In this document: positions 37,995-53,864 of the stretch, in pieces
Layout of the letters: every line of letters begins with the position of its first letter
Position numbering within the stretch: position 1 is the stretch's first letter
DNA from: a virus
Lineage: Duplodnaviria > Heunggongvirae > Uroviricota > Caudoviricetes
Length of the DNA: 64,000 nucleotides
Reading direction: 5' to 3' (one strand)
Virus record (IMG/VR): IMGVR_UViG_3300026122_000001
Notes under the pieces: model-generated
What the model was told of the DNA's origin: nothing
Database searches by the model: none
The model's input: the letters and a program-made list of their open reading frames with translations, nothing else
Program-made: the position numbers and the translations under genes

Positions 37995-38507
37995 TTACGA
38001 AACCCTACTGAGTCGTAATGCATCGCTATCTCGCAGAAACGGTTTGAGTATTCGCCATGCCGTCGCGCTCGGCACACCGTTAATCAAATGTTCAATCGAG
38101 ATATTGGAACGGTTGTAGGTAGTCCGTACCGATGCATACCCTTGGCTTACAATCCCAAGGTTTTCCAATTCGGCATCAGGGTCCACCCCATCAAGCAGGG
38201 CGTACGCGATTTCGTAACACGCCTGTTGGATTTCAACAGGTACTTCTGTGTCTGTGTCACGGGGGAACTCTAATGCCTGAGTGGCCTCTGCTGCCCGAAT
38301 TTGCGCTGGTGTTGCGTCGGGGTTTTGTTCCAGCAGTTCGTAGACCGATCGTTTACACCCTGAATAGTTCAGCGTGTCAATGATTCGTGTAGCTTGCAGC
38401 AACGCCTTTGGGCGATCTGAAGCCCGAGCGGTTGACCATGCATATTCATGCAGTCTTTCCTCAAAATAAGCTTGTGCTTCAATCGTGGTGGCGTATGATT
38501 CGGACAT
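37995..38507 (-). CDS. Head-tail connector/adaptor (DnaT-like gp15/gp6-type)
   Basis: MSESYATTIEAQAYF...ALLQATRIIDTL.Y.G...QALEFPR...VPVEIQQACYEIAYALL; SD AAGGA. Confidence 0.75.
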   Translation of the reverse strand: MSESYATTIEAQAYFEERLHEYAWSTARASDRPKALLQATRIIDTLNYSGCKRSVYELLEQNPDATPAQIRAAEATQALEFPRDTDTEVPVEIQQACYEIAYALLDGVDPDAELENLGIVSQGYASVRTTYNRSNISIEHLINGVPSATAWRILKPFLRDSDALRLSRVS

Positions 38508-38517
38508 TGGCCGATCC

Positions 38518-38799
38518 TTATCTGGCGAGCCATGAGTATTTTTGGGACGCGATGCTTGCGATAACGTGCAGGGAAGCCCGGTCATCAATTTCGATGTCGA
38601 TTTCTTGGCCAGCACCCAGTTCAAAACCAGTGGCTGCTGTGACCCCTGCGCGCCCGACATAAATCAAACCAGCGTTTGTGGCCGCTGCTCTGATCCTGAT
38701 GCCATGGATGGGTGTCATGCCAAGTCCCGGTATGGCAGCAACTGCGGTTGCTCCGATGGTATTCTGGCCAGTCCGGATTTCGTTTGCTATTCTCAACAT
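38518..38799 (-). CDS. Small beta-rich virion protein (93 aa)
   Basis: IRAAATNAGLIYVG...GFELGAGQEIDIEI; located in the head module. Confidence 0.55.
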   Translation of the reverse strand: MLRIANEIRTGQNTIGATAVAAIPGLGMTPIHGIRIRAAATNAGLIYVGRAGVTAATGFELGAGQEIDIEIDDRASLHVIASIASQKYSWLAR

Positions 38800-38802
38800 G
38801 GG

Positions 38803-40632
38803 TTAGTCCTCGTTTGTTTTCTTACCCGTACCACGGGTCTTTGATTTGGTGTCGTCCGACAGTGTAGTGTCACGACTTTCGGCCTTCTCCTGGCGGGCAT
38901 CCTCAGCGGGGTCGCCCGACATATCCGGCAGGCCTCTTGAGCCCGCATTCTCCTCGGTGCCTGCACCAGCCCCAGCGGTTTGGGCTTGGGCAATACGTAG
39001 GATACGCTCCAGGTGGTCTTCCTTGGCCTGTTTGTACTCGTCCTCGTTAAATCCTAGTGCCACAGAGGCCACTTGCTCACCACATAAACCCGCATCGCGG
39101 GCCGCGATGATAATTTGGTGGTCACTGGTTGTATAGTCCGCAGCATCAATTTCGTCCATGATGGTCGCCATGATCTCGACTGAGGAACTACCACCAAGAA
39201 GCTTCGAGGCCACAAGTTTGGCCATCTCTTTCTTGACAGTACGGCCAGGAACTGTGGACATCAAGGCGACGAGCTTCTCTGATTCGTTGATTCGGTCCTT
39301 GTCTGATTTCAAGCTGTACCGGTCAGGGTATTTAACGGTGGCGATTTCACGCTGGGAGACGACTCGTTGCTCATAAGCTGCCCAGTGTTCAGCAACTTGT
39401 CGCTCGCCTGCCTCCAATACCAATCCAATGAACGACAGGCCTGCTTCTAGACCTTGGTTGTCCATTATCTTGGACTCAGCGGAGGCTCGCTTACCGGTCT
39501 TGTTGGCCACCGCCAGATTGACAAGCTTTCGGATGTCGTCTTCAAGTTTCTCTTGGAGGGCCATTGAGGCCTTGAGAGGTTCTGACGAGGGGTGGATAAA
39601 GCCAGGGGGCTCAGCTTTGAGATCATAGGCCCGACCCTGTGTCACGCCCACCTTGATGTCTTCGTCCGAACCGGGTTGGCCACCAGTCGTGGAGGTACCA
39701 TCGGCCGACTTGGGTCCCTTGAGGTGGTCGCCAGCGCCACGAAGGTCACGTTGTTCAACATAGAACGGGAAGTTGGCCAACAACGCATAGCTCACATCAC
39801 TGGATTGTAGATTCAGTAATGCAGCCTGGTGCTTTGACACGTCTTTCAGCAGGCTGTCACCAATATCCAACAGGGTAAACGGAATTCGATCCAATCCGGT
39901 CTCGATCGGTGCTTCCGTTGGCTGCTCTACACCAGCCGAGTTAATGGGTTTGGCATGGCTGTTGTAGAACTGGATGTTGACTTTACCGGTAGTCTCATCA
40001 ACCCATATCATACGATAACGCTCGAATGTCCCGTTTGGCAACGAAATGCCCAAATGGCTCTGGCTGCTAGTGTAACAGACACCATGGTCACGCAGTAACA
40101 AAGCTTGAAACTGATTTGGTGACTCTGGCATGGTACACGACCAGGACAAAATGTCCTCGGCACGGTACATGTACAAATAGGGTCGGGCGTCCCCAACCTC
40201 AGCCAGCGAGTCGCCATGCAGTGCGGGCATGTCTACATACACACCCACTTTACCCATAACGAGAAGCTCGGTCAGTAGATTGATACCAATGAACGAACTC
40301 ATGCTGGCACCACGGCGGTCGACCCCGCCACTTTGACCCTCTACAGCTTTCATGTAGTTGTCTGAACCGCCACGCCGGACGATGTCTCGCATGCGCTGGA
40401 AAATGGCATTGCGGATATCATGCAATGCAGCTTTGGCAAACGTAGGCGTCGGGCTTACCAGCTTTCGTTGCTGGAAGTCCTCGGGACTCTCACGTTTGGT
40501 GAATTGCTGTAGAAACCGGTTCAGATAGTTCTGACCGCCATCATAGGTCATTCGCCAAAGGTCCCACTGCCCCTGATCTTTCATATAGAGGGGGTGGCGG
40601 GTATCAATGAGTCTTGGTTGGTTCAATGCCAT
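38803..40632 (-). CDS. Portal protein
   Basis: 609 aa directly after TerL; RHPLY..W..W..TY.GG..Y...FL...RES..DF..R motif; IPFTLLD; acidic tail. Confidence 0.88.
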   Translation of the reverse strand: MALNQPRLIDTRHPLYMKDQGQWDLWRMTYDGGQNYLNRFLQQFTKRESPEDFQQRKLVSPTPTFAKAALHDIRNAIFQRMRDIVRRGGSDNYMKAVEGQSGGVDRRGASMSSFIGINLLTELLVMGKVGVYVDMPALHGDSLAEVGDARPYLYMYRAEDILSWSCTMPESPNQFQALLLRDHGVCYTSSQSHLGISLPNGTFERYRMIWVDETTGKVNIQFYNSHAKPINSAGVEQPTEAPIETGLDRIPFTLLDIGDSLLKDVSKHQAALLNLQSSDVSYALLANFPFYVEQRDLRGAGDHLKGPKSADGTSTTGGQPGSDEDIKVGVTQGRAYDLKAEPPGFIHPSSEPLKASMALQEKLEDDIRKLVNLAVANKTGKRASAESKIMDNQGLEAGLSFIGLVLEAGERQVAEHWAAYEQRVVSQREIATVKYPDRYSLKSDKDRINESEKLVALMSTVPGRTVKKEMAKLVASKLLGGSSSVEIMATIMDEIDAADYTTSDHQIIIAARDAGLCGEQVASVALGFNEDEYKQAKEDHLERILRIAQAQTAGAGAGTEENAGSRGLPDMSGDPAEDARQEKAESRDTTLSDDTKSKTRGTGKKTNED

Positions 40633-40925: not shown

Positions 40926-42599
40926 TTACAAAAATTTGCTGATGTCTTGGTGTGTTGTTTTGGCTGCGGCGAGTGGCAACGCAATTTCGCTATATGCCCT
41001 TGCATGCGAGAAATGGTCCGGCCCAGTCTCTGCATAAACCGCCCGCGCGTTGCCAAGGTCGTCTTTTTCATACGTGCGTGCCTGTGCCATAATGTGGTCT
41101 TTGTACGTTTGCGAGGTATCCCGTGGCAACCAAATCCGATCAGGAACATGGAATCGACCAAGGGCAGCATCTAGCCAGTTGGTGCGGTCAACGGTGGCAA
41201 TTGGGGCATCAGTATCATCGTCTTGGATCGAAATTTCTTTGCCCGTGACACCTCGGCGATACCGGCACAATGTTACATACCCCGGGAACCGTCGCGAAAA
41301 CCTCCTGGCTTCGTTGATCTGTGGATCAGCGTCTACAACACAATGAAGAACCTGCCATTCATGCATAAGCTGGTCGGCACGGTGCCATTCATTCTCAGTA
41401 AACATCCCTTCCCACAGAACTTTTGCAGTGGCGGCAACATTCAGGTCGCGGCCCCACTCGTCAATAAAATACTCCGTGACCTCAACGTAGTTCCATTTCC
41501 CTTGATCGACACCCATTGTTATGAGCCGTGAAGAATCTAGCGGTCGTGGGTCTCCCTTAACGTGTACCCGCAGACACAGATCGATCATCTCTTCACTTAC
41601 TTGGCCGCCTTCTGGTACGAATGGTATCCCGAGTTTTGAGTTATGGAATTCAACATTCGCTGCTTCGTCACCTAGACCTCGAAAATGTGCAACTACAATG
41701 TCGGCCGGGGTGACTGTGAAAGAATACAGTTGGTTGATATGGAATCCACGATTGTCTGGGTTGTCGGGTACAGTGGCGACCCACTTAGCGGTTTCGAGCC
41801 AGTCTGGTTTTTGTTGGTGTTCAAGTGTGCCTTTACATTCCTTGCAAATCAGAACTGAATCTTTGCATTTTGGGTCCCGTACCGATTCGCCATGAATCTC
41901 AATGCAATCAGGCCAGATTAGTTCCGTCCATCGCCCACAGCGGGGGCATTGAAACTTGTATTCCTCCTGTGTGCTGTCGAGGAATAGCTTATGGACGCCC
42001 TTCTTTGGTATTGTTGGTGTCGAAACCGCACAGATGTGTTTTTTCAGTTTACCGCTCAGACGTTCGAGGGCCAACCAAATCTGCTTTTGGTCCATCTCGT
42101 CTACTTCGTCCAAAATTAGCTCGGACACCGGGATGGATTTTAGGTTACTGTCTCCGCGTGATCCTCTGATATACAGGCAAATGCCACCAGCTTGTTTTAG
42201 GCCAACCGTGTTGGTGTCAGTGAAGATACTCTTCAGGTAGTCGCTTTCTACCAAGGCACCGCCAAATCTCGCTTTTGAAAAATCCGACGCTGTGGTGGCG
42301 GTTGGTAAAACGTAAAGCACATCTTGGTGCAAAATGTCGATGGTATAAAATGCTCGGTTGATGGCAACTTCCGTGACCCCCATCTGGGCAGCTTTCATTG
42401 CAACATTCCATGTCGCAGTCGAATCATGAATCTCTCGGCACCACGGGTGCAGTCTGAACGAAAACGGCGCAGAGATAGTAGGGTCTTCAAGCGTTGGTAT
42501 GATACGCCTGTATTCGGCCCACCGCGAGCAAGAAGTAAGCGTCTTACTTCTTAACCCGGATGCTATGGCCTCTGCGAATTCGTTTTTGATATCGCTCAT
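40926..42599 (-). CDS. Terminase large subunit (lambda GpA-like)
   Basis: MKAAQMGVTE Walker A, LILDEVDE Walker B, STPT coupling motif, CPRC/CKEC zinc site, GVDQG nuclease Asp, PDHFSHA. Confidence 0.93.
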   Translation of the reverse strand: MSDIKNEFAEAIASGLRSKTLTSCSRWAEYRRIIPTLEDPTISAPFSFRLHPWCREIHDSTATWNVAMKAAQMGVTEVAINRAFYTIDILHQDVLYVLPTATTASDFSKARFGGALVESDYLKSIFTDTNTVGLKQAGGICLYIRGSRGDSNLKSIPVSELILDEVDEMDQKQIWLALERLSGKLKKHICAVSTPTIPKKGVHKLFLDSTQEEYKFQCPRCGRWTELIWPDCIEIHGESVRDPKCKDSVLICKECKGTLEHQQKPDWLETAKWVATVPDNPDNRGFHINQLYSFTVTPADIVVAHFRGLGDEAANVEFHNSKLGIPFVPEGGQVSEEMIDLCLRVHVKGDPRPLDSSRLITMGVDQGKWNYVEVTEYFIDEWGRDLNVAATAKVLWEGMFTENEWHRADQLMHEWQVLHCVVDADPQINEARRFSRRFPGYVTLCRYRRGVTGKEISIQDDDTDAPIATVDRTNWLDAALGRFHVPDRIWLPRDTSQTYKDHIMAQARTYEKDDLGNARAVYAETGPDHFSHARAYSEIALPLAAAKTTHQDISKFL

Positions 42600-42711: not shown

Positions 42712-43161
42712 TCAGTTTCGAGGCTTGCGACGGAAATCAGAGAATGTGTCTCCGAGTTCCTTGGCGATCTCTTCGTGCGAGACCGGCTCGTCTTTTGGTT
42801 TGGCTTCCTGCGGAGGCTGCACCACTTCGGCGGCTTCCTTGGGCTCTTCCTTGGGCTCTTCCTTGGGCTCTTCCTTGGGCTCTTCCTTGGGCTCTTCCTT
42901 GGGCTCTTCCTTGGGCTCTTCGGGCCCAACCGACTGCGGGTCTACCCACTGGTCCTCTTGAAGCAACCAGCCTTCGCCGATCTTCTCGCCAGCGTCGGAG
43001 AGTCGGTGACATCGGATTTCACCGGGCTTGACGCCCTTTGGCACCGCGATTTCAACCTCACGGATTTCTTCAGCAAAGGCGTTACACCTCATCGAGCCCT
43101 TGTCTCCAAGTTCGATTTCGATTTGAACGGTACCGGTTGTGTTTGGAAGTTGGATTTTCAT
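42712..43161 (-). CDS. Hypothetical protein with (EEPK)7 tract
   Basis: ORF track; tight coupling to neighbours. Confidence 0.65.
   Translation of the reverse strand: MKIQLPNTTGTVQIEIELGDKGSMRCNAFAEEIREVEIAVPKGVKPGEIRCHRLSDAGEKIGEGWLLQEDQWVDPQSVGPEEPKEEPKEEPKEEPKEEPKEEPKEEPKEAAEVVQPPQEAKPKDEPVSHEEIAKELGDTFSDFRRKPRN
42835..42918. repeat. Perfect 12-bp tandem repeat x7 (TTCCTTGGGCTC)
   Basis: Counted directly; encodes EEPK on the minus strand. Confidence 0.97.
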
Positions 43162-43162: not shown

Positions 43163-43471
43163 TCAGCTTGTCTCCTCTTGTGGGTCGTCGAGGAAGGCCA
43201 AGATCACCAAAATGAATCTGATAATCTCTGGGAGATTCTCAATGATCCAGTCAATCCAGGCCCGCCAATCGATGTCGATTTCAGTTAGGTCCAGTTCAAG
43301 CCGGACACGTTTCTCGATTTTGAGCACGACGTTAATCAACCGGCCATCGCGCGGGTCAACCCGCATGGGGCGGTCGAGAACTCGTTGCACAAGTCGCAAT
43401 CTTGGTCGTGGGATACGTCTGGCAAGCACAGCTTGGCGTTGGGCTGTTTGCAGTGCTTCTCTGAATGTCAT
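43163..43471 (-). CDS. Small protein with C-terminal amphipathic/TM helix
   Basis: IDWRAWIDWIIENLPEIIRFILVILAFL; basic N-half. Confidence 0.65.
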   Translation of the reverse strand: MTFREALQTAQRQAVLARRIPRPRLRLVQRVLDRPMRVDPRDGRLINVVLKIEKRVRLELDLTEIDIDWRAWIDWIIENLPEIIRFILVILAFLDDPQEETS

Positions 43472-43472
43472 G

Positions 43473-44075
43473 TTACCAGATATCATAATCGGGCTCCTCT
43501 GGGTCGTCTGGCGGTGGCGGGGGTATTATCTCGTCCGGCATCAGCAGATACCGCTTGATTCTATCGTTGCCAATCCATCCAACATACTGCTTCACGAGAC
43601 GTGGCGTCGACTCGCCTGGTAGTTGCTCAAAGATAAGGGTCTGTGGGATTTGGACAATGTTGTACTTACGTACCATCTCGTTGTGGTCGTCAGTGTTGAT
43701 AAGCGTGACTTTGTAACCTTCGTTGGCTAGTTGTTTGGCCACCGTTTTCATTTTGGGGCAATTGGCACACCAAGGTGCCCAAAACAGAAACATCTCGTTC
43801 GTTACCGGTTTGATTTCTTCGCCGGATCGTGGGGCTCGTCGTCTTGGTCGAGCTTCTTGTATCCCTCGATATCCATATACCGGTTGGCTATCGACACCAA
43901 CTCGGCCAGTCGGGGAATCCAGCCCATTTTCTTGCCCTTGCCGATATCGAGCAATAGCGTACGCAGCCATTTGACGAGGCTTCGCCAAAGCATCAATAGT
44001 TGCAACTTTTTCCCCATAACAGACCCCTATGACAAGTGTGAGGACGATCAGTAAATTTGTGACTTTAGACAGCAT
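43473..44075 (-). CDS. Exported thioredoxin-fold protein (CxxC)
   Basis: Signal peptide LLIVLTLVIGVCYG; FWAPWCANCPKM; cis-Pro loop QIPQT; TAATG coupling with the protease. Confidence 0.85.
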   Translation of the reverse strand: MLSKVTNLLIVLTLVIGVCYGEKVATIDALAKPRQMAAYAIARYRQGQENGLDSPTGRVGVDSQPVYGYRGIQEARPRRRAPRSGEEIKPVTNEMFLFWAPWCANCPKMKTVAKQLANEGYKVTLINTDDHNEMVRKYNIVQIPQTLIFEQLPGESTPRLVKQYVGWIGNDRIKRYLLMPDEIIPPPPPDDPEEPDYDIW

Positions 44076-45076
44076 TACCATATCCTGTAATCATCAATGT
44101 CTTGGCGAGGGTAACCGACATAACCACTCAAAGCGAAGCTGTCACCTTGTTTCAGTGCTGATTCGATGTTTCGTGCGTCTGCCCAGAAGGAACCTTCTGG
44201 TTGGTCCAGTCTTGTGGGACCCTTTACCCAGTTGTGACCCCATGAGTTTTGAATGCAGCCGCCCTTGCGGCTGGATTTGTCATCCACACCAATAAGCAGC
44301 ATGGCATGCATCCATGGCCGGGCCCGTCTTAGGAAGCCAGCCGAGTCGCGTTTGGAACTGTAACCGACGGAACTGCATATGGTCACTGGGTACCCGTTGG
44401 CAACGCTGTCACAGGCTTCATCCCAGGTAGTGACTAGCTTGGCAGTCTTGATTGGGTGCAGCTTGGTTAAAGGCTCCAACCCGTCCGGTACACCGTCTGC
44501 GCCCAGCTTACGGGCCTTGACGCCATTGTAGAACGAGAAGTCGTACTTCCCGTTCAGGTATGGCTGACGGAGCAGCAATCCGTATTGCTGGCAGTAATCG
44601 CGTGCCCAACAACCCATCGCGCCATCGCCTACGATACCGCCACCAATCTCTACCCGTGCTCCTGCATAGATGATTTCTGTGGCAGCTTTCGCAATCCAGC
44701 GCTCTTGGCTGTTGTGCATCGTCATCTGGACAGCCGTGAGTATGTCCCCACCGAGGCCCCAGGCATGCGAGACGCAATCGCCGATCTCTTGCAAATGTGG
44801 TACGAGTGGGCCGCCTGTTACATGCTCGAACAGTTTCCAAAGCAGCACACGCTTGCCACGGCCAGTACCTTGTATCGCAGCATTATGCTGCGACATCAGT
44901 GGGCGGTGAGTGTTTCGCAACGATTCCAGGCGGGCCGTCTTGTCGTCCAACCACCCAGCGTAAACCGGGGCACCACTGTAGTCGGCTGCTTGTACATGTC
45001 GCAGGATAGAGTTGCTGGTAACAGCGGCTATGGCTGCAACTCCTGATGTCTTTAAGAAATCTCTGCGTGTGAACAT
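44075..45076 (-). CDS. Tat-exported papain-like (C1) cysteine protease
   Basis: Twin-arginine TRRDFLK plus VQA cleavage site; Q..GDCVSHAW (oxyanion Gln, catalytic Cys), HAMLLIG (His), QNSWG (Asn). Confidence 0.88.
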   Translation of the reverse strand: MFTRRDFLKTSGVAAIAAVTSNSILRHVQAADYSGAPVYAGWLDDKTARLESLRNTHRPLMSQHNAAIQGTGRGKRVLLWKLFEHVTGGPLVPHLQEIGDCVSHAWGLGGDILTAVQMTMHNSQERWIAKAATEIIYAGARVEIGGGIVGDGAMGCWARDYCQQYGLLLRQPYLNGKYDFSFYNGVKARKLGADGVPDGLEPLTKLHPIKTAKLVTTWDEACDSVANGYPVTICSSVGYSSKRDSAGFLRRARPWMHAMLLIGVDDKSSRKGGCIQNSWGHNWVKGPTRLDQPEGSFWADARNIESALKQGDSFALSGYVGYPRQDIDDYRIW

Positions 45077-45085
45077 AGCGTCTCC

Positions 45086-46012
45086 TTACTCGGTCACAAT
45101 GTTGGTTTCCAATGGCCGACTGGCCTTGATGATGTCCCGTGAATCCGACGGGCCTGCGTACTTCGCCAGACCCCGACTGATCTCCATCCACAGGTTGTCA
45201 TATTGCTCCACAGTCTGTAGCTTGCCAGCTTTGGAGGCCGCCACCATCACGGCTTTCAGATGGGCCATGAAGGGTGTCCAAACTTCAGTGTGGTGTCCCA
45301 AAGCTGTGTGACTGGATTCTTTGGTCGCTGCGGAAATCTTGTCGATCGGAATCACGCCAGCACGAATCTGTGCCGCAACGCTCTCGAAGCTTTGTGCCAA
45401 CCGTTCGCAGTCATTCTTATTGGCGTCCATTTCAGCCAGCCAATGTGCCAGCTTCACGTCCAGCGGTGCGGACGGGTCCAGCGGCTCGGGCGCGGGCGGC
45501 TGCGGCCCAGGTGCGGGCGGCGTCGGATATTGGTCCAGCACTCGAATCACAATAATCTTGTGGTCCACTTCATCGTCCGCACAACATGACACGAAGAATG
45601 TATAGTCTCCGGGTACGCCGCTAGAAAATACAGCCACACGGCCTTCATCAAACACACGGAAATTAGGCGTCTCTGGCATCACGCTCCACTTGTATTTGTT
45701 CCCCGTGCTTTGGGACACATCAATGATGACAAGCTGCCCAATCTTGACCTCCAGTGTGGTCTCAACGACCAGCATGGCGTCTTCGTCGCGTTCAAGCAAC
45801 GACAGGTCAGTGTCTCCGTCGACAACTTGGGCCATGGCTGTCATTGACGATGACATAATCTGTGGCTGCGGGTTCATTGGGTACATGGTGCCCAACAGTT
45901 GTGTCGCCGGTGTGTCAACCGGTGTATCAACACTCGGTGGTGTGCCCATGAACAGCATACTGACAACCAGCAACACTGCTCCCAAAATGGTCCCTGTGAT
46001 AATCTTTTTCAT
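45086..46012 (-). CDS. Membrane-anchored/exported protein: PKD/Ig-like domain, Pro-rich linker, helical domain
   Basis: N-terminal TM; YKWSVMP..F..FDEGRVAVFSSGVPGDYTFFV; PTPPAPGPQPPAPEP linker. Confidence 0.65.
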   Translation of the reverse strand: MKKIITGTILGAVLLVVSMLFMGTPPSVDTPVDTPATQLLGTMYPMNPQPQIMSSSMTAMAQVVDGDTDLSLLERDEDAMLVVETTLEVKIGQLVIIDVSQSTGNKYKWSVMPETPNFRVFDEGRVAVFSSGVPGDYTFFVSCCADDEVDHKIIVIRVLDQYPTPPAPGPQPPAPEPLDPSAPLDVKLAHWLAEMDANKNDCERLAQSFESVAAQIRAGVIPIDKISAATKESSHTALGHHTEVWTPFMAHLKAVMVAASKAGKLQTVEQYDNLWMEISRGLAKYAGPSDSRDIIKASRPLETNIVTE

Positions 46013-46245
46013 GGCCGATCCTCGACTGTTGCTGCTTTGTGTAGGTCTACTGCTTGGCTGTGTCCGGAATATCTCATTTGGTCATCGGCCCAACAATTCT
46101 CGCATCGTGTTTCGTTGGAGTGCGTCACTGGGTTATGACATCCTGGCTTGGTGCAGTATAGGGTGAGTCCAATTTGTCGCGTTGGTTCCGTCTGTGCGAC
46201 AGGTTCGGGTTGTGATTTGACACCTGGTTTGAAGTATCGCGTCAT
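46009..46245 (-). CDS. Small zinc-finger protein (78 aa)
   Basis: SD GGAG; CTKPGC...CENC. Confidence 0.55.
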   Translation of the reverse strand: MTRYFKPGVKSQPEPVAQTEPTRQIGLTLYCTKPGCHNPVTHSNETRCENCWADDQMRYSGHSQAVDLHKAATVEDRP

Positions 46246-46263
46246 TCTTTTCTCCATCGGCCG

Positions 46264-46297
46264 AGGCCGGGGTGGCACCCAAGAACCACCCCGGCCT
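46264..46297. other. 12-bp perfect inverted repeat (hairpin) downstream of the holin-like gene
   Basis: AGGCCGGGGTGG-10 nt-CCACCCCGGCCT. Confidence 0.7.
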
Positions 46298-46375
46298 TCC
46301 TGCGCGTGCCTACAGCCACGGCACGCCAACCCGGTCCGTCACCCATGTCAATCATGGGGTCACCGGGGATGTGAT

Positions 46376-46561
46376 TTACACAATCGGTTTGTTGGTGACG
46401 AACCGCAACACGATGTTGAGAGCGCCAACGGCGGCACCCATGACGGCCACGATCTGCGGGTATTCCTGGATGACATCGTGCCCTTGGGCGTACCCAAGGA
46501 TACCAGCAGCCAGTACCAGCATGTTGACCCACAGGGTCTTTGATTTGAGAGGATTTTTCAT
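46376..46561 (-). CDS. Putative holin (61 aa, 2 TM)
   Basis: MKNPLKSKTLWVNMLVLAAG...GALNIVLRFVTNKP; ATGA coupling to TerS; SD AAGGAG. Confidence 0.6.
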   Translation of the reverse strand: MKNPLKSKTLWVNMLVLAAGILGYAQGHDVIQEYPQIVAVMGAAVGALNIVLRFVTNKPIV

Positions 46562-47091
46562 TTGTCGATACTCCTTTGTTCTGAGATACATTCAACGATA
46601 CGCTCTGATATGCGATCGACTACTTCTTCGTAGCCTGGCATGTCGTGGAGTTCTTCTACGATGACTTCGACAATTTGCCGACCCATGACGAGCACGGATG
46701 ACTTGGCGAGGAGGGAGCCAAGATTCTGTTCGATAGTGTGTGCGCTTTTTACGAGTCGCTCAACAGTGAGGAGGAGTGTGTTGAGGCCGCCAATAGCGGC
46801 TAATAGATCGCTCTCGTTTTCAATCACATTGAAGCGCTCTTCGATCAGTATCCGAGTAAGAGAAATTTCTTCTCGAAGAGATTTGATCTCTTCATGCTCG
46901 ACGAAACGGGCCAGCTTGTCGCGATGTTTCTGCTTGGCCAGCTTGTACATGTTACTTTTGAGCCGGTCGGCCAGCGTGGACCGACCGTGATGCAACGGGC
47001 AGAAATCAGACCCCTCTGCGGCGTCATGCGGGCATTGGCCCTTGTCGCCCGAGGCTTTACATCGATTTTGGCGTGCCGGATCAGCAGACAT
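46558..47091 (-). CDS. Terminase small subunit-like protein with N-terminal zinc finger (HGGxSTG-like)
   Basis: RC...GQC...FCPLHHGRST followed by helical oligomerisation region (SLREEISLTRILI); first gene of the late arm; SD GGAGG. Confidence 0.6.
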   Translation of the reverse strand: MSADPARQNRCKASGDKGQCPHDAAEGSDFCPLHHGRSTLADRLKSNMYKLAKQKHRDKLARFVEHEEIKSLREEISLTRILIEERFNVIENESDLLAAIGGLNTLLLTVERLVKSAHTIEQNLGSLLAKSSVLVMGRQIVEVIVEELHDMPGYEEVVDRISERIVECISEQRSIDK

Positions 47092-47285
47092 ATTAGAACT
47101 CCTCCATATAACATTACGGCACGAAGAGGCCAAAAATCCAGGAATTCTGGAAAAATTGTCAAAATAGTCATAATCCGCTTTACTGGTGCAACAATTATTT
47201 TCGGCATAATCGGTACCAAAGGGCTACGTTTAGGGCACCAACCACCAGGAGGTGGGGTATATTTGGCGATTTTCATCAATTTGGC

Positions 47286-47314
47286 TTGACTATCAGGGCC
47301 GAATATGCTAGAAT
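47286..47314 (+). promoter_or_regulatory. sigma70 promoter (extended -10)
   Basis: TTGACT-17 nt-TAGAAT with TG at -15/-14. Confidence 0.8.
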
Positions 47315-47352
47315 TGAGATGCCAGGCGTACCAAATCACCAGGAGCCGACCC

Positions 47353-48270
47353 ATGCTACTTGAAAAGCTGGCCGCAAAAGGCCTTATCAACCCGCCAGGG
47401 TTCGTGCGAGCCAATACGCAGTATCTTACCGTGATGGGCTCTGAGGCCTACGGAGTGGCCACAGACCACTCAGACTACGATTGCTACGGATGGTGCATTC
47501 CACCCATGGACATGATCTTCCCGCATCTCCGGGGCGAGATTCCCGGCTTTGGGACACAGATTCAGCGATTCGAGAACTGGCAGAAGCACCATGTTGATGA
47601 CGCCAAGGCCTTGAATGGCCGTGGGCGTCAGTATGACTTCGCGGTCTACAGCATCGTCAAGTATTTCAACCTGTGCATGCAGAACAACCCCAATATGATC
47701 GACTCGTTGTTCGTTCCACAAGAGTGCGTGTTGTTCTCCACGGTGGTTGGCCAGATGGTACGCGAGAAACGGCACAGGTTCCTCCACAAGGGCTGCTGGC
47801 ACCGGTTTAAGGGCTATGCCTATGCCCAGATGAAGAAGGCCGGGAGCACTAAAAGAACAGGTTCGCGGAAGGAAGGTGTCGAGGAACACGGCTACGATAT
47901 CAAGTTTGCCTACCACATCATCCGACTCCTCAATGAAGTCGAACAGATTCTCACGGAAGGCGACCTGGACCTGAGACGAAACCGGGAGCAACTCAAATCG
48001 ATTCGCCGTGGTGAATGGTCCTTCGACGAAGTGAAGCAATACTTTGCCAGTACGGAAGCTCAGTTGGAGAAGGTCTACACTGACTGCAAAATCCTCCCGT
48101 TCAGCCCCAAGGACGACGGGCTGGAGGGCGACATCCATACGCTGTTGTTGAACTGCCTGGAAGAGCACTTTGGCAACATGAGTGATGCCATCGTGAGCGA
48201 GGCGGCAGCCATTCAATCGCTGAGACGCATTCAGGACGAAGCCGAACGAACGCTGGGGAGACTAAGTTGA
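47353..48270 (+). CDS. DNA polymerase beta-superfamily nucleotidyltransferase (Nuc-transf/RlaP-like)
   Basis: VMGSEAYG..TDHSDYDCYG (GS + DxD); NNPNMIDSLF; FKGYAYAQ; YDIKFAYHIIRL; SD AGGAG. Confidence 0.85.
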   Translation: MLLEKLAAKGLINPPGFVRANTQYLTVMGSEAYGVATDHSDYDCYGWCIPPMDMIFPHLRGEIPGFGTQIQRFENWQKHHVDDAKALNGRGRQYDFAVYSIVKYFNLCMQNNPNMIDSLFVPQECVLFSTVVGQMVREKRHRFLHKGCWHRFKGYAYAQMKKAGSTKRTGSRKEGVEEHGYDIKFAYHIIRLLNEVEQILTEGDLDLRRNREQLKSIRRGEWSFDEVKQYFASTEAQLEKVYTDCKILPFSPKDDGLEGDIHTLLLNCLEEHFGNMSDAIVSEAAAIQSLRRIQDEAERTLGRLS

Positions 48271-48521
48271 GTGAACCACGAATACTGACACTGTTGGAGA
48301 CTCTGACTTTCATACCGGCGAGGCCAAAGGGCGGTCACCATACCCATGCCAAGCTTCTGGGCGGTTGGGCGGCTGTCTGTGGATACGCGACTTCGTCTCC
48401 GAATGCCTTCCGGATGCGGCCACGGGGCGGGTGGACACTGAACCCCGCAAATACACCCATCACTTGCCCCAACTGTTTGGCAAAACTGGCAAAGTTGCAG
48501 AAACCGAAGGATTCGTCTTGA
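48267..48521 (+). CDS. Hypothetical protein with H...C...CPNC (possible zinc site)
   Basis: GTGA overlap; ITCPNCL. Confidence 0.55.
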   Translation: MSEPRILTLLETLTFIPARPKGGHHTHAKLLGGWAAVCGYATSSPNAFRMRPRGGWTLNPANTPITCPNCLAKLAKLQKPKDSS

Positions 48522-48546
48522 CAAATGTGGCCTGGCCTGCTAAGGT
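48518..48546 (+). promoter_or_regulatory. sigma70 promoter
   Basis: TTGACA-17 nt-TAAGGT with TG extension. Confidence 0.65.
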
Positions 48547-48591
48547 ACAGGTTATGGTCGTTGATAATTGTTAGCTCTGAGGACCTTAGGC

Positions 48592-48762
48592 ATGGAAATT
48601 ACCTACCAAGAGGCCTACTGCATCGTCGAGATGGTCAGTGAAATGTGGTTCGGAACCTCCGAGGGGTTGCCGCAAGCCCATATGAAGCTGGCCCAGGATA
48701 TTCTTGGCTGGTTTCCAGACTTAGCGGACGTATTCCAACCACTATTTTTGAGTCTGCAATAA
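48592..48762 (+). CDS. Hypothetical protein
   Basis: MEITYQEAY; TAATG coupling to next gene. Confidence 0.45.
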   Translation: MEITYQEAYCIVEMVSEMWFGTSEGLPQAHMKLAQDILGWFPDLADVFQPLFLSLQ

Positions 48763-49139
48763 TGTCTGCGACAATGCAGGTACGCGCTATCGCCTTTTCT
48801 GTACTGGATGGCCAGATTGTTGATGTGCCGGTGTGGGTGGTGGACTTTTGGCGATTTACTACCATTGTTGGAGACGAGGGGCTGAGTTATTATCTCCGAA
48901 GCGGGTACCATAGCGAAACGGTTCGCGTCTATCTGGGGCTGTGGGATTCCGAACATGCGATTTTACGCGACTTTGCCAGGCTGCTTCGTGAGTTGACCGT
49001 TTCCCGGTCAGATTTAGACACCAATGGGTGGCTGTATGATGACTTGTTTATGGAATACCTGCGGACCCTGGAACTCCGCATACTACAATTCAATGTTGAA
49101 GAACTCTGTTCTGCTATTTTGGAGCACCTTGGGCTGTGA
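48762..49139 (+). CDS. Hypothetical protein
   Basis: Start at TAATG; GTGA overlap with the desulfurase. Confidence 0.55.
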   Translation: MSATMQVRAIAFSVLDGQIVDVPVWVVDFWRFTTIVGDEGLSYYLRSGYHSETVRVYLGLWDSEHAILRDFARLLRELTVSRSDLDTNGWLYDDLFMEYLRTLELRILQFNVEELCSAILEHLGL

Positions 49140-50299
49140 ATAAGCGACACGAAATCTATCTGGATCATAACGCGACGACTTTTATGTCCACTGAGGCCCT
49201 TGGAGCCATGCATGCTTGCACGTTCCTTGGTAACCAGTCAAGTCGGCATCATAAGGGCGTCAAAGCTGACGGAAGATTGTCACAAGATACCAACCTCATC
49301 CGCACCATCCTGAATATCCCGGATGATGCGCGTGTGATCTTCACCAGCGGGGCCACCGAAGCCAACAATATGGCTGTCTTGGGTTTCGGTCAATGGACCA
49401 AGCTCATTCCGTGCCCGATTCTTACCTCGGCGGTAGAGCATCCCAGCGTCTTGGCTGCTGTCGACGAACTTGGAATGAATGGTTGGGACATCCATGTGAT
49501 TCCAGTTGACACCTGCGGCCGGGTGAAGCTGGATGATTTGGAATGCATACTACAACACCACGTTACTCAACCAGTGGGGGTTGTCACAGTCATGTTGGCC
49601 AACCACGAAACTGGTGTGATTCAACCCATAGAGAAGGTTGCTCGCATTTGTACTGACCACAAATGTCGGTTGCATGTGGATGCGACCCAAGCAGTGGGCA
49701 AACTGGACATAGATTTCCAGGCCATGGGCGCAACATCAATGAGCTTCAGTGCCCATAAGTTTGGTGGGCCCGTCGGCATTGGTTGTCTCGTGGTACGCGA
49801 CGAGGCAGTACATGACATAAAGCCTTTGATGTTCGGTGGTCATCATCAAGGCGGACTGCGACCCGGAACTGTACCGGTGGCTATGGTGGCTGGCATGGCG
49901 GCCGCGCTAAAGCATCGCGATGACTTTGCAGGCAGCCTTATGAGCCGGGACAGTTGGCATCGGGCTATGCTTGAGACACAGTTGGTTAATGCAGGGTTAC
50001 CCATCACGATACATGGGGAGAAAGCAGCACGGGTCCCAAACACGACCAACTTGTCCATCCGTGGAATACGCGCCACCCAGTTTGTGTCCAAGCTGAACGA
50101 CCTGAAAGTCTATTGTTCGACTGGAGCCGCTTGCTCGGCTGAAAACGAACCCTCGCCCACCTTGAGGGCCATGGGCATAGGTAAGGAAGCGGAACGCAGC
50201 GCAATACGATTCTCTGTTGGCCTCTCAACCACAGAGGCTGAGATCAAAGAGGCCTCAAAGCGTATCATCGACGTGTACGCAAACATAGACAAGGATTGA
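49136..50299 (+). CDS. iscS: Cysteine desulfurase (IscS/NifS family)
   Basis: IYLDHNATT, FTSGATEANN, EHPSV, HVDATQAVGK, SAHKFGGP (PLP Lys), RPGT, STGAACS (catalytic Cys). Confidence 0.93.
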   Translation: MNKRHEIYLDHNATTFMSTEALGAMHACTFLGNQSSRHHKGVKADGRLSQDTNLIRTILNIPDDARVIFTSGATEANNMAVLGFGQWTKLIPCPILTSAVEHPSVLAAVDELGMNGWDIHVIPVDTCGRVKLDDLECILQHHVTQPVGVVTVMLANHETGVIQPIEKVARICTDHKCRLHVDATQAVGKLDIDFQAMGATSMSFSAHKFGGPVGIGCLVVRDEAVHDIKPLMFGGHHQGGLRPGTVPVAMVAGMAAALKHRDDFAGSLMSRDSWHRAMLETQLVNAGLPITIHGEKAARVPNTTNLSIRGIRATQFVSKLNDLKVYCSTGAACSAENEPSPTLRAMGIGKEAERSAIRFSVGLSTTEAEIKEASKRIIDVYANIDKD

Positions 50300-50300
50300 C

Positions 50301-50558
50301 ATGCCACAATTGACTGACTACGAGAATTTGGTTACTACATTGCATGCCATGGGGTTCGAGGAATGGTACGGGCCCGGTGACGATACACCAGCAATGGCTT
50401 TTGTGGCCCGGTCGTTCGCAGAGGGCTGGAAAGAAGTGACCATCTCGTCAAAGGGTAAGAACTTTGATGACGACCCTGACCCGGCCCACCTCTTTCGATT
50501 CACTTTTGCATCGGGCGGGCGACTTTGTGGTTACCGCCCAATACCAATAGGGGAATAA
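50301..50558 (+). CDS. Hypothetical protein
   Basis: ORF track, operon packing, SD AAGGA. Confidence 0.55.
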   Translation: MPQLTDYENLVTTLHAMGFEEWYGPGDDTPAMAFVARSFAEGWKEVTISSKGKNFDDDPDPAHLFRFTFASGGRLCGYRPIPIGE

Positions 50559-50561
50559 ACG

Positions 50562-50882
50562 ATGAATCTCAACCAAGCCATGGAATCACTCAACAAGAAT
50601 GTTGCTTTGGATTTCAAGTATCCAGAGCACTGGGATCAATGGGCCGCACAACCATGGTATGCCAGGGTCGCCTGCTGGTGGTCGGTTGCCATCATGGTGT
50701 TCATTGGGCTTATGGTTATCCCGATGATACGTGCAGAGGGTCGTGTGACTTACTGGGGCCAACTGGGCGGTATAGTTATTTTCGTCGACATGCTTTGCGG
50801 GCGGCGTACAAAAATGACACAACTTATGGCCGCAATGCAAGTCATGTCTGCTTTTAAGAAACAGGGTGATCTCAATGCATAA
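50562..50882 (+). CDS. Hypothetical membrane protein (2 TM)
   Basis: WWSVAIMVFIGLMVIPMI and LGGIVIFVDML. Confidence 0.55.
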   Translation: MNLNQAMESLNKNVALDFKYPEHWDQWAAQPWYARVACWWSVAIMVFIGLMVIPMIRAEGRVTYWGQLGGIVIFVDMLCGRRTKMTQLMAAMQVMSAFKKQGDLNA

Positions 50883-51931
50883 CCGCTATCGGGAAGCCCG
50901 GCTGCGAGCAGAACGGCTCCTTAAAGACTTCAGGTTGGAAGACAAGGTTGCGGAGCTAAAGGCCATCGAGACAAAGATGGCCGACCCTGCAAGCTGCATG
51001 GATGTGCCGCCGTCAATGATACAACGACACGGGGAGCTAACGGCCGAATTGGCCCCCATGGGTGTATATCAAGACACAGATGGAAGCCCTGGATTGCGTC
51101 GAGCAACAACTTGAAGACTTTGCAGAAGATGTAGTGGACTTCGACCGTATCACACGAAACATGGAATTCAAAGCCGTGATGACCGGGAAGTTTGCCCGCA
51201 ACTCAGCGATTGTTACCATCCATGCGCGTGACGGCGGGACCGAGGCATGTGACTGGTGCGACATGCTGTCCTGTATGTACATGCGGTGGGCCACTGACTG
51301 CGGGTATGCTGTCGGGATACAGTCACAGGATATGAGTAAGGGTGCTGGCATTTCATCCATCAGCTTCAAGATCACGGGCTCGTATGCCTATGGCTTCCTT
51401 GAGGGCGAGAACGGTCTGCATCGGCTGGTCCGGATCAGCCCGTTCAATGCACAGGGGAAGCGACAAACCAGTTTTGCTGCGGTGCAAATAGACCCTGTCA
51501 TAAAGAAGGAAGCACAACGGCCGATTACCCAGTCTGAGTTGATTTGGGATTATTTCATTGCGCCCGGCCCTGGCGATCAACACAAGGACAAAACAGAGTC
51601 TGGTGTGCGACTTAGCCACATCCCATCGGGTGTCGTGGTTACGTGTGTCACCGATCGAAGTCAAAACACAAACAAAGCTGGAGCCATGACGCTGTTGGTG
51701 GCACGCCTAGCAAAGATACAACTGGACACTGAGGCGTTGGAGAAAGCGGCCCGCCATGGCACCAAGCCACAGGTCGGCTTTGGGTCCCAGATCAGGTCGT
51801 ACTTTCGGCACCCGAAACAACGAGTAACGGATGCACGCACTGGCCATCAAGAGACGAACTTTCAGGCCATCTTGAACGGCGACATCCAATCGTTCATTGA
51901 CGCCTACCTGATTTGGAAGGCCCAGCAATGA
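50875..51931 (+). pseudogene. prfB: Peptide chain release factor 2 homologue, split by a +1 frame change (overlap 51041-51114), with GGQ changed to GDQ
   Basis: GGTEACDW..ML..MY, HRLVRISPF (SPF motif), RQTSF, TESGVRLSHIPSG, DRSQ, GFGSQIRSY; upstream ORF 50875-51114 matches the RF2 N-terminal helices; pseudogene versus programmed frameshift unresolved. Confidence 0.8.
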
Positions 51932-52440: not shown

Positions 52441-52455
52441 CACAAGGAGTTTGAC

Positions 52456-53856: not shown

Positions 53857-53864
53857 CCTGGGTC

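What the first reader, a model, noticed from the sequence alone, without database searches (positions are those of the whole stretch)
43163..46561. Candidate non-canonical lysis/envelope-attack cassette: Tat papain protease + exported thioredoxin + holin, inserted between TerS and TerL
Seen: between TerS and TerL lie a 2-TM holin-like gene, a zinc finger, a membrane-anchored Ig/PKD-like protein, a C1 protease with a perfect Tat motif and intact Gln/Cys/His/Asn, a signal-peptide CxxC thioredoxin coupled to it by TAATG, and an amphipathic-helix protein. No peptidoglycan hydrolase or spanin is recognisable anywhere in the window. Established: lysis cassettes often sit next to terminase genes; Tat exports folded proteins; papain-family enzymes need a reduced Cys; some bacteria (e.g. 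Planctomycetota) have Cys/Pro-rich proteinaceous envelope layers. Inference: the phage may exit by reducing disulfide cross-links and proteolysing a protein wall or S-layer instead of using an endolysin. The host is not determined from this sequence.
Basis: partly seen in the sequence, partly recalled or inferred. Interest (0 to 1): 0.85.

Follow-up and report, generated by a model that had tools for sequence, protein, structure and literature searches.

The report
Phage exported cysteine-protease and thioredoxin cassette
A large group of uncultured phages, probably of Planctomycetes and their relatives, has no recognisable cell-wall-cutting enzyme; just ahead of its DNA-packaging genes it carries a conserved set of exported proteins built around a papain-type protease and a thioredoxin, which may be an undescribed way for a phage to open its host.

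Summary
On the minus strand, 43163-47133 is one tightly coupled operon start. It holds a 2-TM holin-like gene, a 4-Cys protein, a membrane-anchored PKD/helical protein, a Tat-signal peptidase with a papain (C1A) fold, a CxxC thioredoxin joined by TAATG, and two small ORFs. TerL and portal follow. TerS is not verified.

The anchor-peptidase-thioredoxin trio is conserved. It lies upstream of TerL in 39 of 47 informative TerL-selected contigs. A thioredoxin follows the peptidase in 72 of 80 loci.

New here:
- Inteins sit at all three catalytic motifs.
- In two planctomycete loci, one a twice-copied prophage of an isolate, the 2-TM protein is fused to the anchor protein.
- Peptidase and thioredoxin share a C-terminal DYxIW tail.
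- 18 peptidoglycan-hydrolase or peptidoglycan-binding Pfam families are absent from nine related, near-complete genomes.

Hosts point to the Planctomycetota/Verrucomicrobiota group.

A lysis role is the best reading (about 0.45) but rests on inference only; no activity, timing or substrate is shown. Many thioredoxins in the clade lack a signal peptide, so "exported thioredoxin" is not general.

The scan noted this module on at least six other genomes, with similar readings. I found no paper describing it.

The parts
46558..47133 (-). First gene of the minus-strand late operon: a 191-aa (or 177-aa) protein with an N-terminal Cys/His cluster and a helical rest.
   Evidence: ORF. No Pfam or NCBIfam family. 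One weak PHROG hit of unknown function. The Atlas places it in a large viral family without a name; TerS clusters score only 0.77-0.78. Conserved in 28 of 80 loci by tblastn.
46376..46561 (-). 2-TM holin-like membrane protein (61 aa from the ATG that overlaps the upstream stop codon).
   Evidence: A profile of 30 homologues matches the N-terminus of the anchor-protein homologues in Planctomyces L102 (E 1.5e-8) and in the Planctomicrobium prophages L098/L099 (E 1.9e-7), so the two genes are fused there.
46009..46329 (-). Small 4-Cys (zinc-ribbon-like) protein; a variable accessory gene.
   Evidence: Weak 4Cys_prefix hit, E 0.019, below the cut-off. Found in only 3 of 80 loci.
45086..46012 (-). 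Anchor protein: N-terminal TM helix, disordered linker, PKD-like beta-sandwich, Pro-rich linker, C-terminal helical bundle.
   Evidence: Alignment A2. AF2 model. Foldseek PKD matches. It lies directly upstream of the peptidase in 64 of 80 viral loci and in 12 of 22 cellular loci.
44075..45076 (-). Tat-signal C1A-like cysteine peptidase (333 aa). Signal is about residues 1-30. Q96; C101 (44774-44776); H257 (44306-44308); N277 (44246-44248). C-terminal tail D-Y-R-I-W (44078-44092).
   Evidence: Inteins at C101, H257 and NSWG in homologues.
43473..44081 (-). Thioredoxin with an N-terminal hydrophobic anchor or signal, C105-x-x-C108 and a C-terminal tail D-Y-D-I-W. Its start overlaps the peptidase stop (ATG at 44081, or TAATG at 44073-44077).
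   Evidence: It is the only thioredoxin in each of four related genomes, and it lies beside the peptidase. Present within 2.5 kb downstream of the peptidase in 72 of 80 loci.
43163..43486 (-). 107-aa basic protein with a C-terminal hydrophobic segment; overlaps the end of the thioredoxin gene by 14 nt.
   Evidence: No family. Found in 13 of 80 loci.
42712..43161 (-). 149-aa protein with EEPK repeats; the last gene before TerL.
   Evidence: No family. Found in 2 of 80 loci by tblastn.
40926..42599 (-). Large terminase subunit (GpA type).
   Evidence: PF05876 E 4.9e-31 and phrog_675 E 1.8e-88.
38803..40632 (-). Portal protein.
   Evidence: phrog_145 E 7.9e-31.

Best explanation
This is the envelope-attack (lysis) module of an uncultured clade of tailed phages and prophages of Planctomycetota-type (PVC) bacteria. 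It is transcribed at the head of the late operon.

Proposed mechanism:
1. The C1A-like cysteine peptidase folds in the cytoplasm and is exported by the Tat pathway.
2. It works at the outer face of the cytoplasmic membrane together with the membrane-anchored PKD/helical protein.
3. The thioredoxin, translationally coupled to it, keeps or makes the catalytic Cys101 reduced in the oxidising periplasm. It may also reduce disulfide-linked envelope proteins.
4. The 2-TM protein, which is fused to the anchor protein in some prophages, is the membrane component that times or triggers the event.
5. The peptidase then cuts envelope proteins, so the cell opens without a classical muralytic endolysin.

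Shown: the folds, the catalytic residues, the export signals, the synteny, the co-occurrence, the gene fusion and the lack of recognisable murein hydrolases.

Inferred: export itself, the redox coupling, the substrate, the timing and lysis.
For: 1. Enzyme. The peptidase has a papain fold. Q/C/H/N are invariant. Inteins lie exactly before C101, after H257 and after N277-S-W-G in homologues. About a quarter of the top 150 of 1,837 family clusters carry insertions. This marks a conserved active site in a gene under strong selection.

2. Extracytoplasmic location. The Tat signal is above both curated cut-offs, and an RR motif is present in 63 of 80 homologues. Other phage lineages carry Sec-type signals or anchors instead. 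Stand-alone cellular homologues carry none.

3. Module.
- The anchor protein lies upstream of the peptidase in 64 of 80 loci.
- A thioredoxin lies downstream in 72 of 80 loci.
- That thioredoxin is the only one in each of four related genomes.
- The peptidase stop and thioredoxin start overlap as TAATG.
- The shared DYxIW tail occurs on exactly these two ORFs out of 433 in the window and 1,160 in G001.
- The 2-TM protein is fused to the anchor protein in Planctomyces and Planctomicrobium loci.

4. Position. The module is at the start of the late operon, just upstream of a GpA-type terminase. This holds in the main clade (75 of 80 loci) and in an unrelated Mu/lambda-like prophage of Planctomicrobium sp. 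SH661. That is the place of S-R-Rz in lambda (own knowledge).

5. Penetrance. Among loci picked by TerL alone, 39 of 47 have the peptidase. Five have a different Cys/His protein instead, and none has both.

6. No murein hydrolase. None is recognisable in the window. Across nine related genomes, 18 Pfam families gave no reportable match: 15 were searched in all nine genomes and three in five of them. Eight of the nine genomes are rated at least 96% complete and one has terminal repeats. The only hit was one sub-threshold Amidase_2 match in G007. A positive control worked.

7. The coat protein is P22-like and has a scaffold protein, so no head protease is expected.
Against: - No functional data exist: no activity, substrate, timing or lysis phenotype.
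- The 2-TM protein matches no curated holin family. In many relatives it lies several kb from the peptidase.
- About 26 of the 72 thioredoxins are 86-107 aa with no signal peptide. The redox partner is therefore not always exported. It cannot ride on the peptidase where the peptidase uses a Sec-type signal (L052-L054).
- Planctomycetes have peptidoglycan (PMC4432640). C1A peptidases are not known to cut D-amino-acid peptides (own knowledge). How murein would be breached is unexplained.
- Most ORFs of these genomes have no family, so a cryptic muralytic enzyme may exist.
- Cytoplasmic stand-alone homologues occur in Mucilaginibacter, Tundrisphaera and jumbo-phage contigs. The family is therefore not intrinsically a lysis enzyme.
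- No spanin-like gene was recognised.
Confidence: 0.45

Rival explanations
1. Non-lytic periplasmic role. The exported peptidase-thioredoxin pair remodels the host envelope during infection or lysogeny. It might destroy receptors (superinfection exclusion), process host or phage periplasmic proteins, or disarm an envelope-based defence. The cell would be opened by something else.
For: The export signals and the membrane anchor place the proteins in the envelope. The clade includes prophages, where exclusion functions are common. No muralytic activity is expected of a C1A fold (own knowledge). The thioredoxin stays in the sister subclade that lacks the peptidase, so the redox function is not tied to this enzyme alone.
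Against: The genes are translationally coupled inside the late packaging/structural operon. They are not next to repressor or early genes. They behave as near-core genes of the clade. The 2-TM holin-like partner, and its fusion to the anchor protein, suit a membrane-triggered event. This reading leaves the missing endolysin unexplained.
Confidence: 0.2
2. The peptidase is a true endolysin. It would be a papain-fold endopeptidase that cuts peptidoglycan stem peptides or cross-links, as CHAP, NlpC/P60 and PeiW/PeiP enzymes of the same superfamily do. It would be exported ahead of time by Tat and kept inactive until triggered.
For: Papain-superfamily cysteine peptidases are common phage lysins (PMC10318531). 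The gene sits in the lysis position, and no other murein hydrolase is recognisable. An exported enzyme that is held in check has a precedent in SAR endolysins (own knowledge).
Against: The structural matches are to protein-cleaving C1A enzymes (xylellain, cathepsins, Lpg2622), not to CHAP or NlpC/P60. PF05257 and PF00877 give no hit. No peptidoglycan-binding domain was found.
Confidence: 0.12
3. Accessory (moron) gene set that benefits a lysogen: a secreted protease for nutrient acquisition or for interaction with other organisms. This would resemble phage- or transposon-borne C10 proteases with adjacent inhibitors in Bacteroides fragilis.
For: Mobile elements do carry papain-like proteases with small partner genes (PMC2873492). 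Stand-alone homologues exist in bacterial chromosomes.
Against: The position is syntenic and near-universal in the late operon across more than 300 viral contigs. Inteins at the catalytic motifs are typical of conserved, important genes. No promoter or terminator of its own was seen.
Confidence: 0.08
4. Virion maturation or assembly protease acting on head or tail proteins.
For: The gene lies next to terminase and portal. Inteins are frequent in packaging and structural genes (own knowledge).
Against: Tat or Sec export signals are conserved across lineages. The coat is P22-like with a scaffold protein, a head type that matures without a protease (own knowledge). The partners are membrane or periplasmic proteins.
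Confidence: 0.03

Closest known systems
Lambda-type lysis cassette (holin S, endolysin R, spanins Rz/Rz1) at the start of the late operon, upstream of the Nu1/A terminase
   Same: The position is immediately upstream of a GpA-type terminase. It includes a small 2-TM membrane protein, an N-terminally anchored periplasmic protein with a helical domain (reminiscent of an i-spanin), and one enzyme gene.
   Different: The enzyme is a C1A-like protease, not a muralytic enzyme, and it carries its own Tat signal. A thioredoxin is an integral member. No outer-membrane lipoprotein spanin was seen.
SAR endolysins with pinholins (P1 Lyz, phage 21 R)
   Same: A lysis enzyme is exported before lysis and held at the membrane. 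In P1 Lyz the catalytic Cys is caged in a disulfide and freed by thiol-disulfide exchange (own knowledge). This is a precedent for redox control of a periplasmic lysis enzyme.
   Different: Those enzymes are Sec-dependent lysozymes with an internal isomerising Cys. Here there is a Tat-exported protease and a separate thioredoxin protein.
Bacterial C1A peptidases xylellain (PDB 3OIS) and Legionella Lpg2622 (PDB 6A0N)
   Same: These are the best structural matches (E 4.6e-11 for xylellain). They show the same order of Gln/Cys/His/Asn.
   Different: Only 12-18% identity. The Pfam C1 model is sub-threshold. Those proteins are cellular enzymes with no phage context, no Tat signal, no thioredoxin partner and no DYxIW tail.
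Pseudomurein endoisopeptidases PeiW/PeiP of methanogen phages, and CHAP/NlpC-P60 endolysins
   Same: They are cysteine peptidases of the papain superfamily used by phages to open the host wall (PMC10318531).
   Different: They belong to different families (C71, C51, C40), act on wall peptides and are not Tat-exported. None was detected here.
Baculovirus V-CATH (viral cathepsin) with chitinase
   Same: A virus-encoded C1A cathepsin-like protease, made as an inactive form and used late to break down host barriers for virus release (own knowledge).
   Different: It is a eukaryotic virus enzyme retained in the endoplasmic reticulum and acting at tissue level, with no thioredoxin partner.
Cysteine protease-inhibitor gene pairs (staphopain-staphostatin; Bacteroides fragilis Bfp-Bfi on mobile elements)
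   Same: A papain-like protease is co-transcribed with a small beta-rich partner (PMC2873492). The PKD-domain anchor protein could play a comparable holding role.
   Different: No similarity of the anchor protein to staphostatins or chagasin was shown. Binding is untested.

Membership tests
Peptidase family C1 (papain), C1A-like | Two-lobed papain fold | tested here: met
   AF2 model with pLDDT 84.8 and pTM 0.86. Foldseek gives 274 PDB chains at E <= 0.001; the top hits are xylellain, cathepsins K/B/S/L and Lpg2622. Swiss-Prot cathepsins also match.
Peptidase family C1 (papain), C1A-like | Gln, Cys, His and Asn(-Ser-Trp) in family order and conserved | tested here: met
   Q96, C101, H257 and N277-S278-W279-G280 are invariant in 32 homologues. 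The His and Asn-Ser-Trp region aligns with the same motif of chymopapain and cathepsin K. Inteins mark all three sites. The Cys assignment rests on order and motif; it was not checked by superposition.
Peptidase family C1 (papain), C1A-like | Sequence match to the curated family model (PF00112) above its gathering score | tested here: not met
   E 0.15; 12.6 bits against a cut-off of 20.7. Best treated as a distinct, unnamed family of the papain clan that is close to C1A.
Peptidase family C1 (papain), C1A-like | Thiol-dependent proteolytic activity | not testable with these tools
   Needs an enzyme assay.
Tat (twin-arginine) substrates | S/T-R-R-x-F-L-K motif, a moderately hydrophobic h-region and an AxA-type site | tested here: met
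   The protein starts M-F-T-R-R-D-F-L-K. PF10518 scores 24.9 bits (cut-off 22.7). TIGR01409 scores 27.2 bits (cut-off 16.7). RR is nearly invariant and present in 63 of 80 homologues.
Tat (twin-arginine) substrates | Export dependent on TatABC | not testable with these tools
   Needs fractionation in a tat mutant or an RR-to-KK variant.
Thioredoxin family | Thioredoxin fold model and a CxxC active site | tested here: met
   PF00085 scores 37.3 bits (cut-off 23.5). TIGR01068 gives E 5e-9, below its equivalog cut-off. W-C-A-N-C lies at residues 104-108. CxxC is present in 72 of 80 neighbouring ORFs.
Thioredoxin family | Periplasmic location (signal peptide or anchor) | tested here: inconclusive
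   The window protein and the other long forms have an N-terminal hydrophobic segment. About 26 of 72 relatives are 86-107 aa and have none. No signal-peptide predictor was available.
Holins | Small membrane protein with 1-4 TM segments in a lysis cassette | tested here: met
   61 aa with two hydrophobic segments; it is the second gene of the operon.
Holins | Match to a described holin family | tested here: not met
   No Pfam, PHROG or NCBIfam hit. The only link is an Atlas feature similarity of 0.91-0.95 to clusters auto-named holin, one of which has Phage_holin_1 on 34% of its members. This is a lead, not a test.
Holins | Timed lethal membrane permeabilisation | not testable with these tools
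   Needs an expression experiment.
Holin-endolysin-spanin lysis cassette | A muralytic enzyme | tested here: not met
   None in the window. Eighteen peptidoglycan-hydrolase or binding families gave no reportable match in nine related genomes; three of the families were searched in only five of them.
Holin-endolysin-spanin lysis cassette | Spanin (an inner-membrane and outer-membrane lipoprotein pair, or a unimolecular spanin) | tested here: inconclusive
   No ORF with a lipobox was seen in the cassette on reading the ORF list. The anchor protein has an i-spanin-like layout (N-terminal TM, periplasmic helices). No spanin model was available.
Holin-endolysin-spanin lysis cassette | Late expression next to the packaging genes | tested here: inconclusive
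   The position is met and no internal promoter or terminator stands out. Expression data could not be obtained.

The most novel reading that the evidence does not exclude
A whole clade of tailed dsDNA phages of Planctomycetota/PVC bacteria (at least 470 IMG/VR contigs, plus prophages) lyses its host without any muralytic endolysin. It would use a Tat-exported C1A-type cysteine protease, a dedicated thioredoxin, a PKD-domain membrane anchor and a holin-like trigger. A shared C-terminal DYxIW tag would bring the two enzymes to a common docking site. The thioredoxin would reduce disulfide-linked envelope proteins or the enzyme's own thiol, and the protease would then dismantle the protein scaffold of the envelope.
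Probability: 0.3. Interest if true: 0.9.

Novelty: new variant of a known kind. Interest (0 to 1): 0.72.

Why it matters
All tailed dsDNA phages studied so far open the cell with a murein-degrading enzyme. A large, widespread clade that relies on an exported protease and a reductase would be a new solution to lysis.

It would say something concrete about what holds the envelope of Planctomycetes and their relatives together. These bacteria have thin murein, Cys-rich wall proteins and an unusual set of wall hydrolases.

It would also give tools for a phylum that is hard to lyse and to manipulate.

Independently of function, three features are new and testable:
- a Tat-exported phage enzyme;
- inteins at all three catalytic motifs of a protease;
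- a shared C-terminal tag on two unrelated folds.

An isolate with two prophage copies (Planctomicrobium sp. SH661) makes the question experimentally accessible.

Tried and rejected
- Complex prediction of the peptidase (residues 36-333) with the anchor protein (60-308) gave no verdict (score 0.05). It is evidence neither for nor against binding.
- No whole genome is held for the window, so the remaining 92 kb of the 156-kb contig could not be searched. Related complete records were used instead.
- GenBank phages hold no homologue of the peptidase. The TerL is only 25-30% identical to any cultured phage, so there is no host or annotation to borrow.
- Cluster look-ups gave almost no organism names.
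- Pfam, PHROG, NCBIfam and the Atlas gave nothing useful for the 107-aa, 149-aa, 106-aa and 191-aa proteins.
- The idea that signal-less thioredoxins ride out on the Tat-exported peptidase was dropped as a general rule. In L052-L054 the peptidase has a Sec-type signal and no tail, while its thioredoxin is short and carries the tail.
- The ~205-aa protein that replaces the peptidase in a sister subclade looked to me, from its motifs (HVGI ... FCSEWV), like a permuted NlpC/P60-type hydrolase. This could not be verified. It has no Pfam hit and no PDB sequence hit, and its only PHROG hit is a family labelled enoyl-CoA hydratase-like. It is therefore reported only as a mutually exclusive alternative gene.
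- The head-maturation protease reading was rejected because of the export signals and the P22-type coat with scaffold.
- Paper searches found no description of this cassette.

Full report
**What is there**

The minus strand from 47133 down to the portal gene is one tightly packed operon. The gene order is:
- a 191-aa Cys/His-cluster protein (46558-47133);
- a 61-aa 2-TM protein, whose ATG overlaps the preceding stop (46376-46561);
- a 4-Cys protein (46009-46329);
- a 308-aa anchored protein (45086-46012);
- a 333-aa peptidase (44075-45076);
- a 202-aa thioredoxin (43473-44081);
- a 107-aa and a 149-aa ORF;
- TerL of the GpA type (40926-42599) and portal (38803-40632).

The peptidase stop and the thioredoxin start overlap as ATATGGTAATG, read directly. 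A simple scan shows no convincing internal promoter or terminator on this strand. The divergent promoter region lies at 47134-47305.

**The peptidase**

- Pfam sees only the Tat signal (24.9 bits against a cut-off of 22.7). Peptidase_C1 is sub-threshold (E 0.15). TIGR01409 confirms the Tat signal (27.2 against 16.7).
- An AF2 model built on 32 homologues is confident (pLDDT 84.8, pTM 0.86). It matches C1A enzymes: xylellain 3OIS at E 4.6e-11, then cathepsins K/B/S/L and Legionella Lpg2622.
- Q96, C101, H257 and N277-S-W-G are invariant, and R4-R5 are nearly so.
- The family is large. A profile search finds 1,837 clusters at 50% identity, 838 of them at E <= 1e-30. None carries a functional name.
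- About a quarter of the best 150 clusters are 430-1,200 aa long because of inteins (Intein_splicing, Hint and LAGLIDADG domains).
- The inteins sit exactly before C101, which is then the +1 residue, directly after H257, and after N-S-W-G. One protein has inteins at two of these sites. Inteins settle in the most conserved sites of important genes. This supports the active-site assignment independently and argues against a dispensable accessory gene.

**The partners**

- The 308-aa protein has a TM helix, a disordered linker, a PKD-like beta-sandwich, a proline-rich linker and a helical bundle.
- The thioredoxin passes PF00085, has W-C-A-N-C and carries an N-terminal hydrophobic segment.
- The 2-TM protein has no curated family. 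A protein-language-model search places it next to viral clusters auto-named holin (0.95). This is a lead only.

**Conservation**

- The peptidase occurs on 334 IMG/VR contigs.
- In the best 80 loci, TerL lies downstream in 75, portal in 67, and the anchor protein directly upstream in 64.
- With a profile built here, a CxxC thioredoxin ORF lies within 2.5 kb downstream in 72 of 80 loci.
- In four related complete genomes, Pfam's thioredoxin model hits once per genome, at that gene.
- Selecting loci by TerL alone gives 472 contigs. Of the 47 with at least 2.5 kb upstream, 39 have the peptidase with the anchor protein. Five have an unrelated ~205-aa protein with an invariant His and Cys instead. 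None has both, and three have neither. The thioredoxin is kept in that sister subclade.

**A gene fusion ties the 2-TM protein to the module**

The anchor-protein homologue begins with a copy of the 2-TM protein in two cases: the Planctomyces sp. contig L102, and the two identical prophages of Planctomicrobium sp. SH661 (L098/L099). The profile E-values are 1.5e-8 and 1.9e-7 over the whole profile, and pairwise BLASTP gives 3e-5 and 2e-4. The fused protein has three TM segments followed by the PKD and helical domains. This fits an N-in/C-in 2-TM protein joined to an N-in/C-out anchor.

**A shared tail**

- The peptidase ends D-Y-R-I-W and the thioredoxin ends D-Y-D-I-W.
- These are the only two of 433 ORFs in the window, and of 1,160 in the 177-kb relative, with such an end.
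- The tail recurs on most thioredoxin homologues (DYKIW, DYRIW, DYQIW, EYEIY and similar) and on 64 of 80 peptidases.
- The tail region of the model is disordered.
- What it binds is unknown.

**The missing endolysin**

- No murein hydrolase was found among about 70 ORFs of the window.
- The window covers only 64 of 156 kb, so I searched nine related records in six frames. They span 82-178 kb. Eight are rated at least 96% complete and one has terminal repeats.
- Families searched: Phage_lysozyme, SLT, Amidase_2, GH19, GH108, GH25, Amidase_3, M15_3, M15_4, VanY, M23, NlpC/P60, CHAP, Lysozyme_like, Phage_lysozyme2, Muramidase, Hydrolase_2 and PG_binding_1. The last-named Phage_lysozyme2, Muramidase and Hydrolase_2 were searched in five of the nine records only.
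- None is present. The only hit is one sub-threshold Amidase_2 match in G007. For three of these families (GH19, GH108 and Muramidase) the control genomes gave no hit either, so their absence is uninformative.
- These phages therefore also lack the usual virion-borne wall hydrolases.

**Host**

- Of 22 loci in bacterial genomes, 13 are Planctomycetota.
- The anchor-peptidase pair occurs in 12 of the 22, and 9 of those are Planctomycetota.
- In the isolate Planctomicrobium sp. SH661 the pair, followed by a thioredoxin, lies a few genes upstream of a GpA terminase, a lambda-type portal and a Mu-like coat protein. So an unrelated head module has the cassette in the same place.
- A prophage with the window's own head module sits in a 4.2-Mb contig. 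Named homologues of its flanking gene come from Verrucomicrobiota and Planctomycetota.
- A homologue of the alternative 205-aa gene is on a 203-kb Thermoguttaceae contig.
- The host is thus most likely a PVC bacterium. It is not proven for this phage.

**Interpretation**

The data fit a lysis or envelope-attack cassette best (about 0.45). The supporting points are the late-operon position upstream of the terminase, a holin-like membrane partner, an exported and anchored enzyme, and no other lysin.

A thioredoxin makes chemical sense for a thiol protease in an oxidising periplasm. The TAATG coupling would give roughly equal amounts of the two proteins.

Three points count against an over-reading:
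- Planctomycetes do have murein (PMC4432640), and a C1A enzyme is not expected to cut it.
- About a third of the thioredoxins have no signal. They could act before export, or reach the periplasm only through a membrane lesion.
- Cytoplasmic stand-alone homologues exist.

The rival readings, weighed in their own section, are a non-lytic periplasmic role, a true peptidoglycan endopeptidase, a lysogen-benefit gene and a virion protease.

**Relation to earlier notes and to the literature**

The scan has noted the same kind of module on at least six other genomes, with similar readings. Those are unchecked AI notes and I do not count them as evidence. My own reading was filed before I saw them.

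- the intein sites;
- the 2-TM/anchor fusion;
- the mutual exclusion with the 205-aa gene;
- the signal-less thioredoxin forms;
- the 18-family absence test.

Full-text searches found no paper on such a cassette.

Noticed in passing
homologues P0049, P0052, P0120, P0128, P0129, P0154, P0159, P0165 of window 44075-45076: The peptidase family is unusually rich in inteins. Insertions sit exactly before the catalytic Cys, right after the catalytic His and after the Asn-Ser-Trp-Gly motif. Some proteins carry two inteins with LAGLIDADG endonucleases.
   Followed up: yes
window 44078-44092 and 43476-43490: Peptidase and thioredoxin share a C-terminal D-Y-x-I-W tail. It is conserved on both families across the clade and found on no other ORF of the window or of a 177-kb relative. 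The binding partner is unknown.
   Followed up: partly
L148:4000-4617, L155:3221-3835, L181:4319-5041 (also L149, L159, L169): A sister subclade with the same TerL lacks the peptidase and the anchor protein. In the same operon region it has a ~205-aa signal-less protein with an invariant His (HVGI) and Cys (FCSEWV). It has no Pfam family. The two genes never occur together (39 / 5 / 0).
   Followed up: partly
L148:6546-6968, L181:6973-7326: In that sister subclade the thioredoxin is kept. Its N-terminus ends in a lipobox-like F-V-G-C or V-T-G-C, which suggests a lipoprotein thioredoxin.
   Followed up: no
L187 (4.2-Mb contig), L120/L121 (Planctomicrobium sp. SH661): The clade includes integrated prophages. 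One, with the window's head module (TerL, portal, DnaT_2-like protein, P22-type coat), lies next to a PVC-type arabinofuranosidase/DUF1080 gene. The Planctomicrobium isolate carries two nearly identical prophage copies.
   Followed up: partly
G010 (Planctomicrobium sp. SH661 genome): The host-type genome itself gave no hit to Phage_lysozyme, SLT, Amidase_2, GH19, GH108, M15_3, M15_4 or CHAP. It gave one NlpC/P60 hit and one weak M23 hit. This is an unusually poor set of classical wall hydrolases.
   Followed up: no
window 51062-51931 (+): A phage-encoded class I release-factor homologue (PCRF and RF-1 domains), although the genome reads open under the standard code.
   Followed up: no
window 4928-19615 and 3-4925 (-): Two giant ORFs (4,895 aa and at least 1,641 aa) downstream of the tail genes. 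They contain beta-propeller repeats (DUF5050, LDL-receptor class B).
   Followed up: no
window 62869-63228 (+): Homologue of the anti-Thoeris protein Tad5 (PF25190, E 3.6e-12).
   Followed up: no
window 47305-56016 (+): An early-arm cluster holding a RlaP-type nucleotidyltransferase, an IscS/NifS-like aminotransferase, HNH endonucleases, a non-specific endonuclease, nucleoside diphosphate kinase and a Thg1-like protein.
   Followed up: no
window 37995-38660 (-): A DnaT_2-like ssDNA-binding domain protein sits between the portal and scaffold genes. It is conserved at that place in relatives (L122, L123, L187).
   Followed up: no
L119 (226-kb viral contig): A signal-less homologue of the peptidase lies in a jumbo-phage-like contig beside split multisubunit RNA polymerase genes. 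The family therefore also has cytoplasmic phage members.
   Followed up: no
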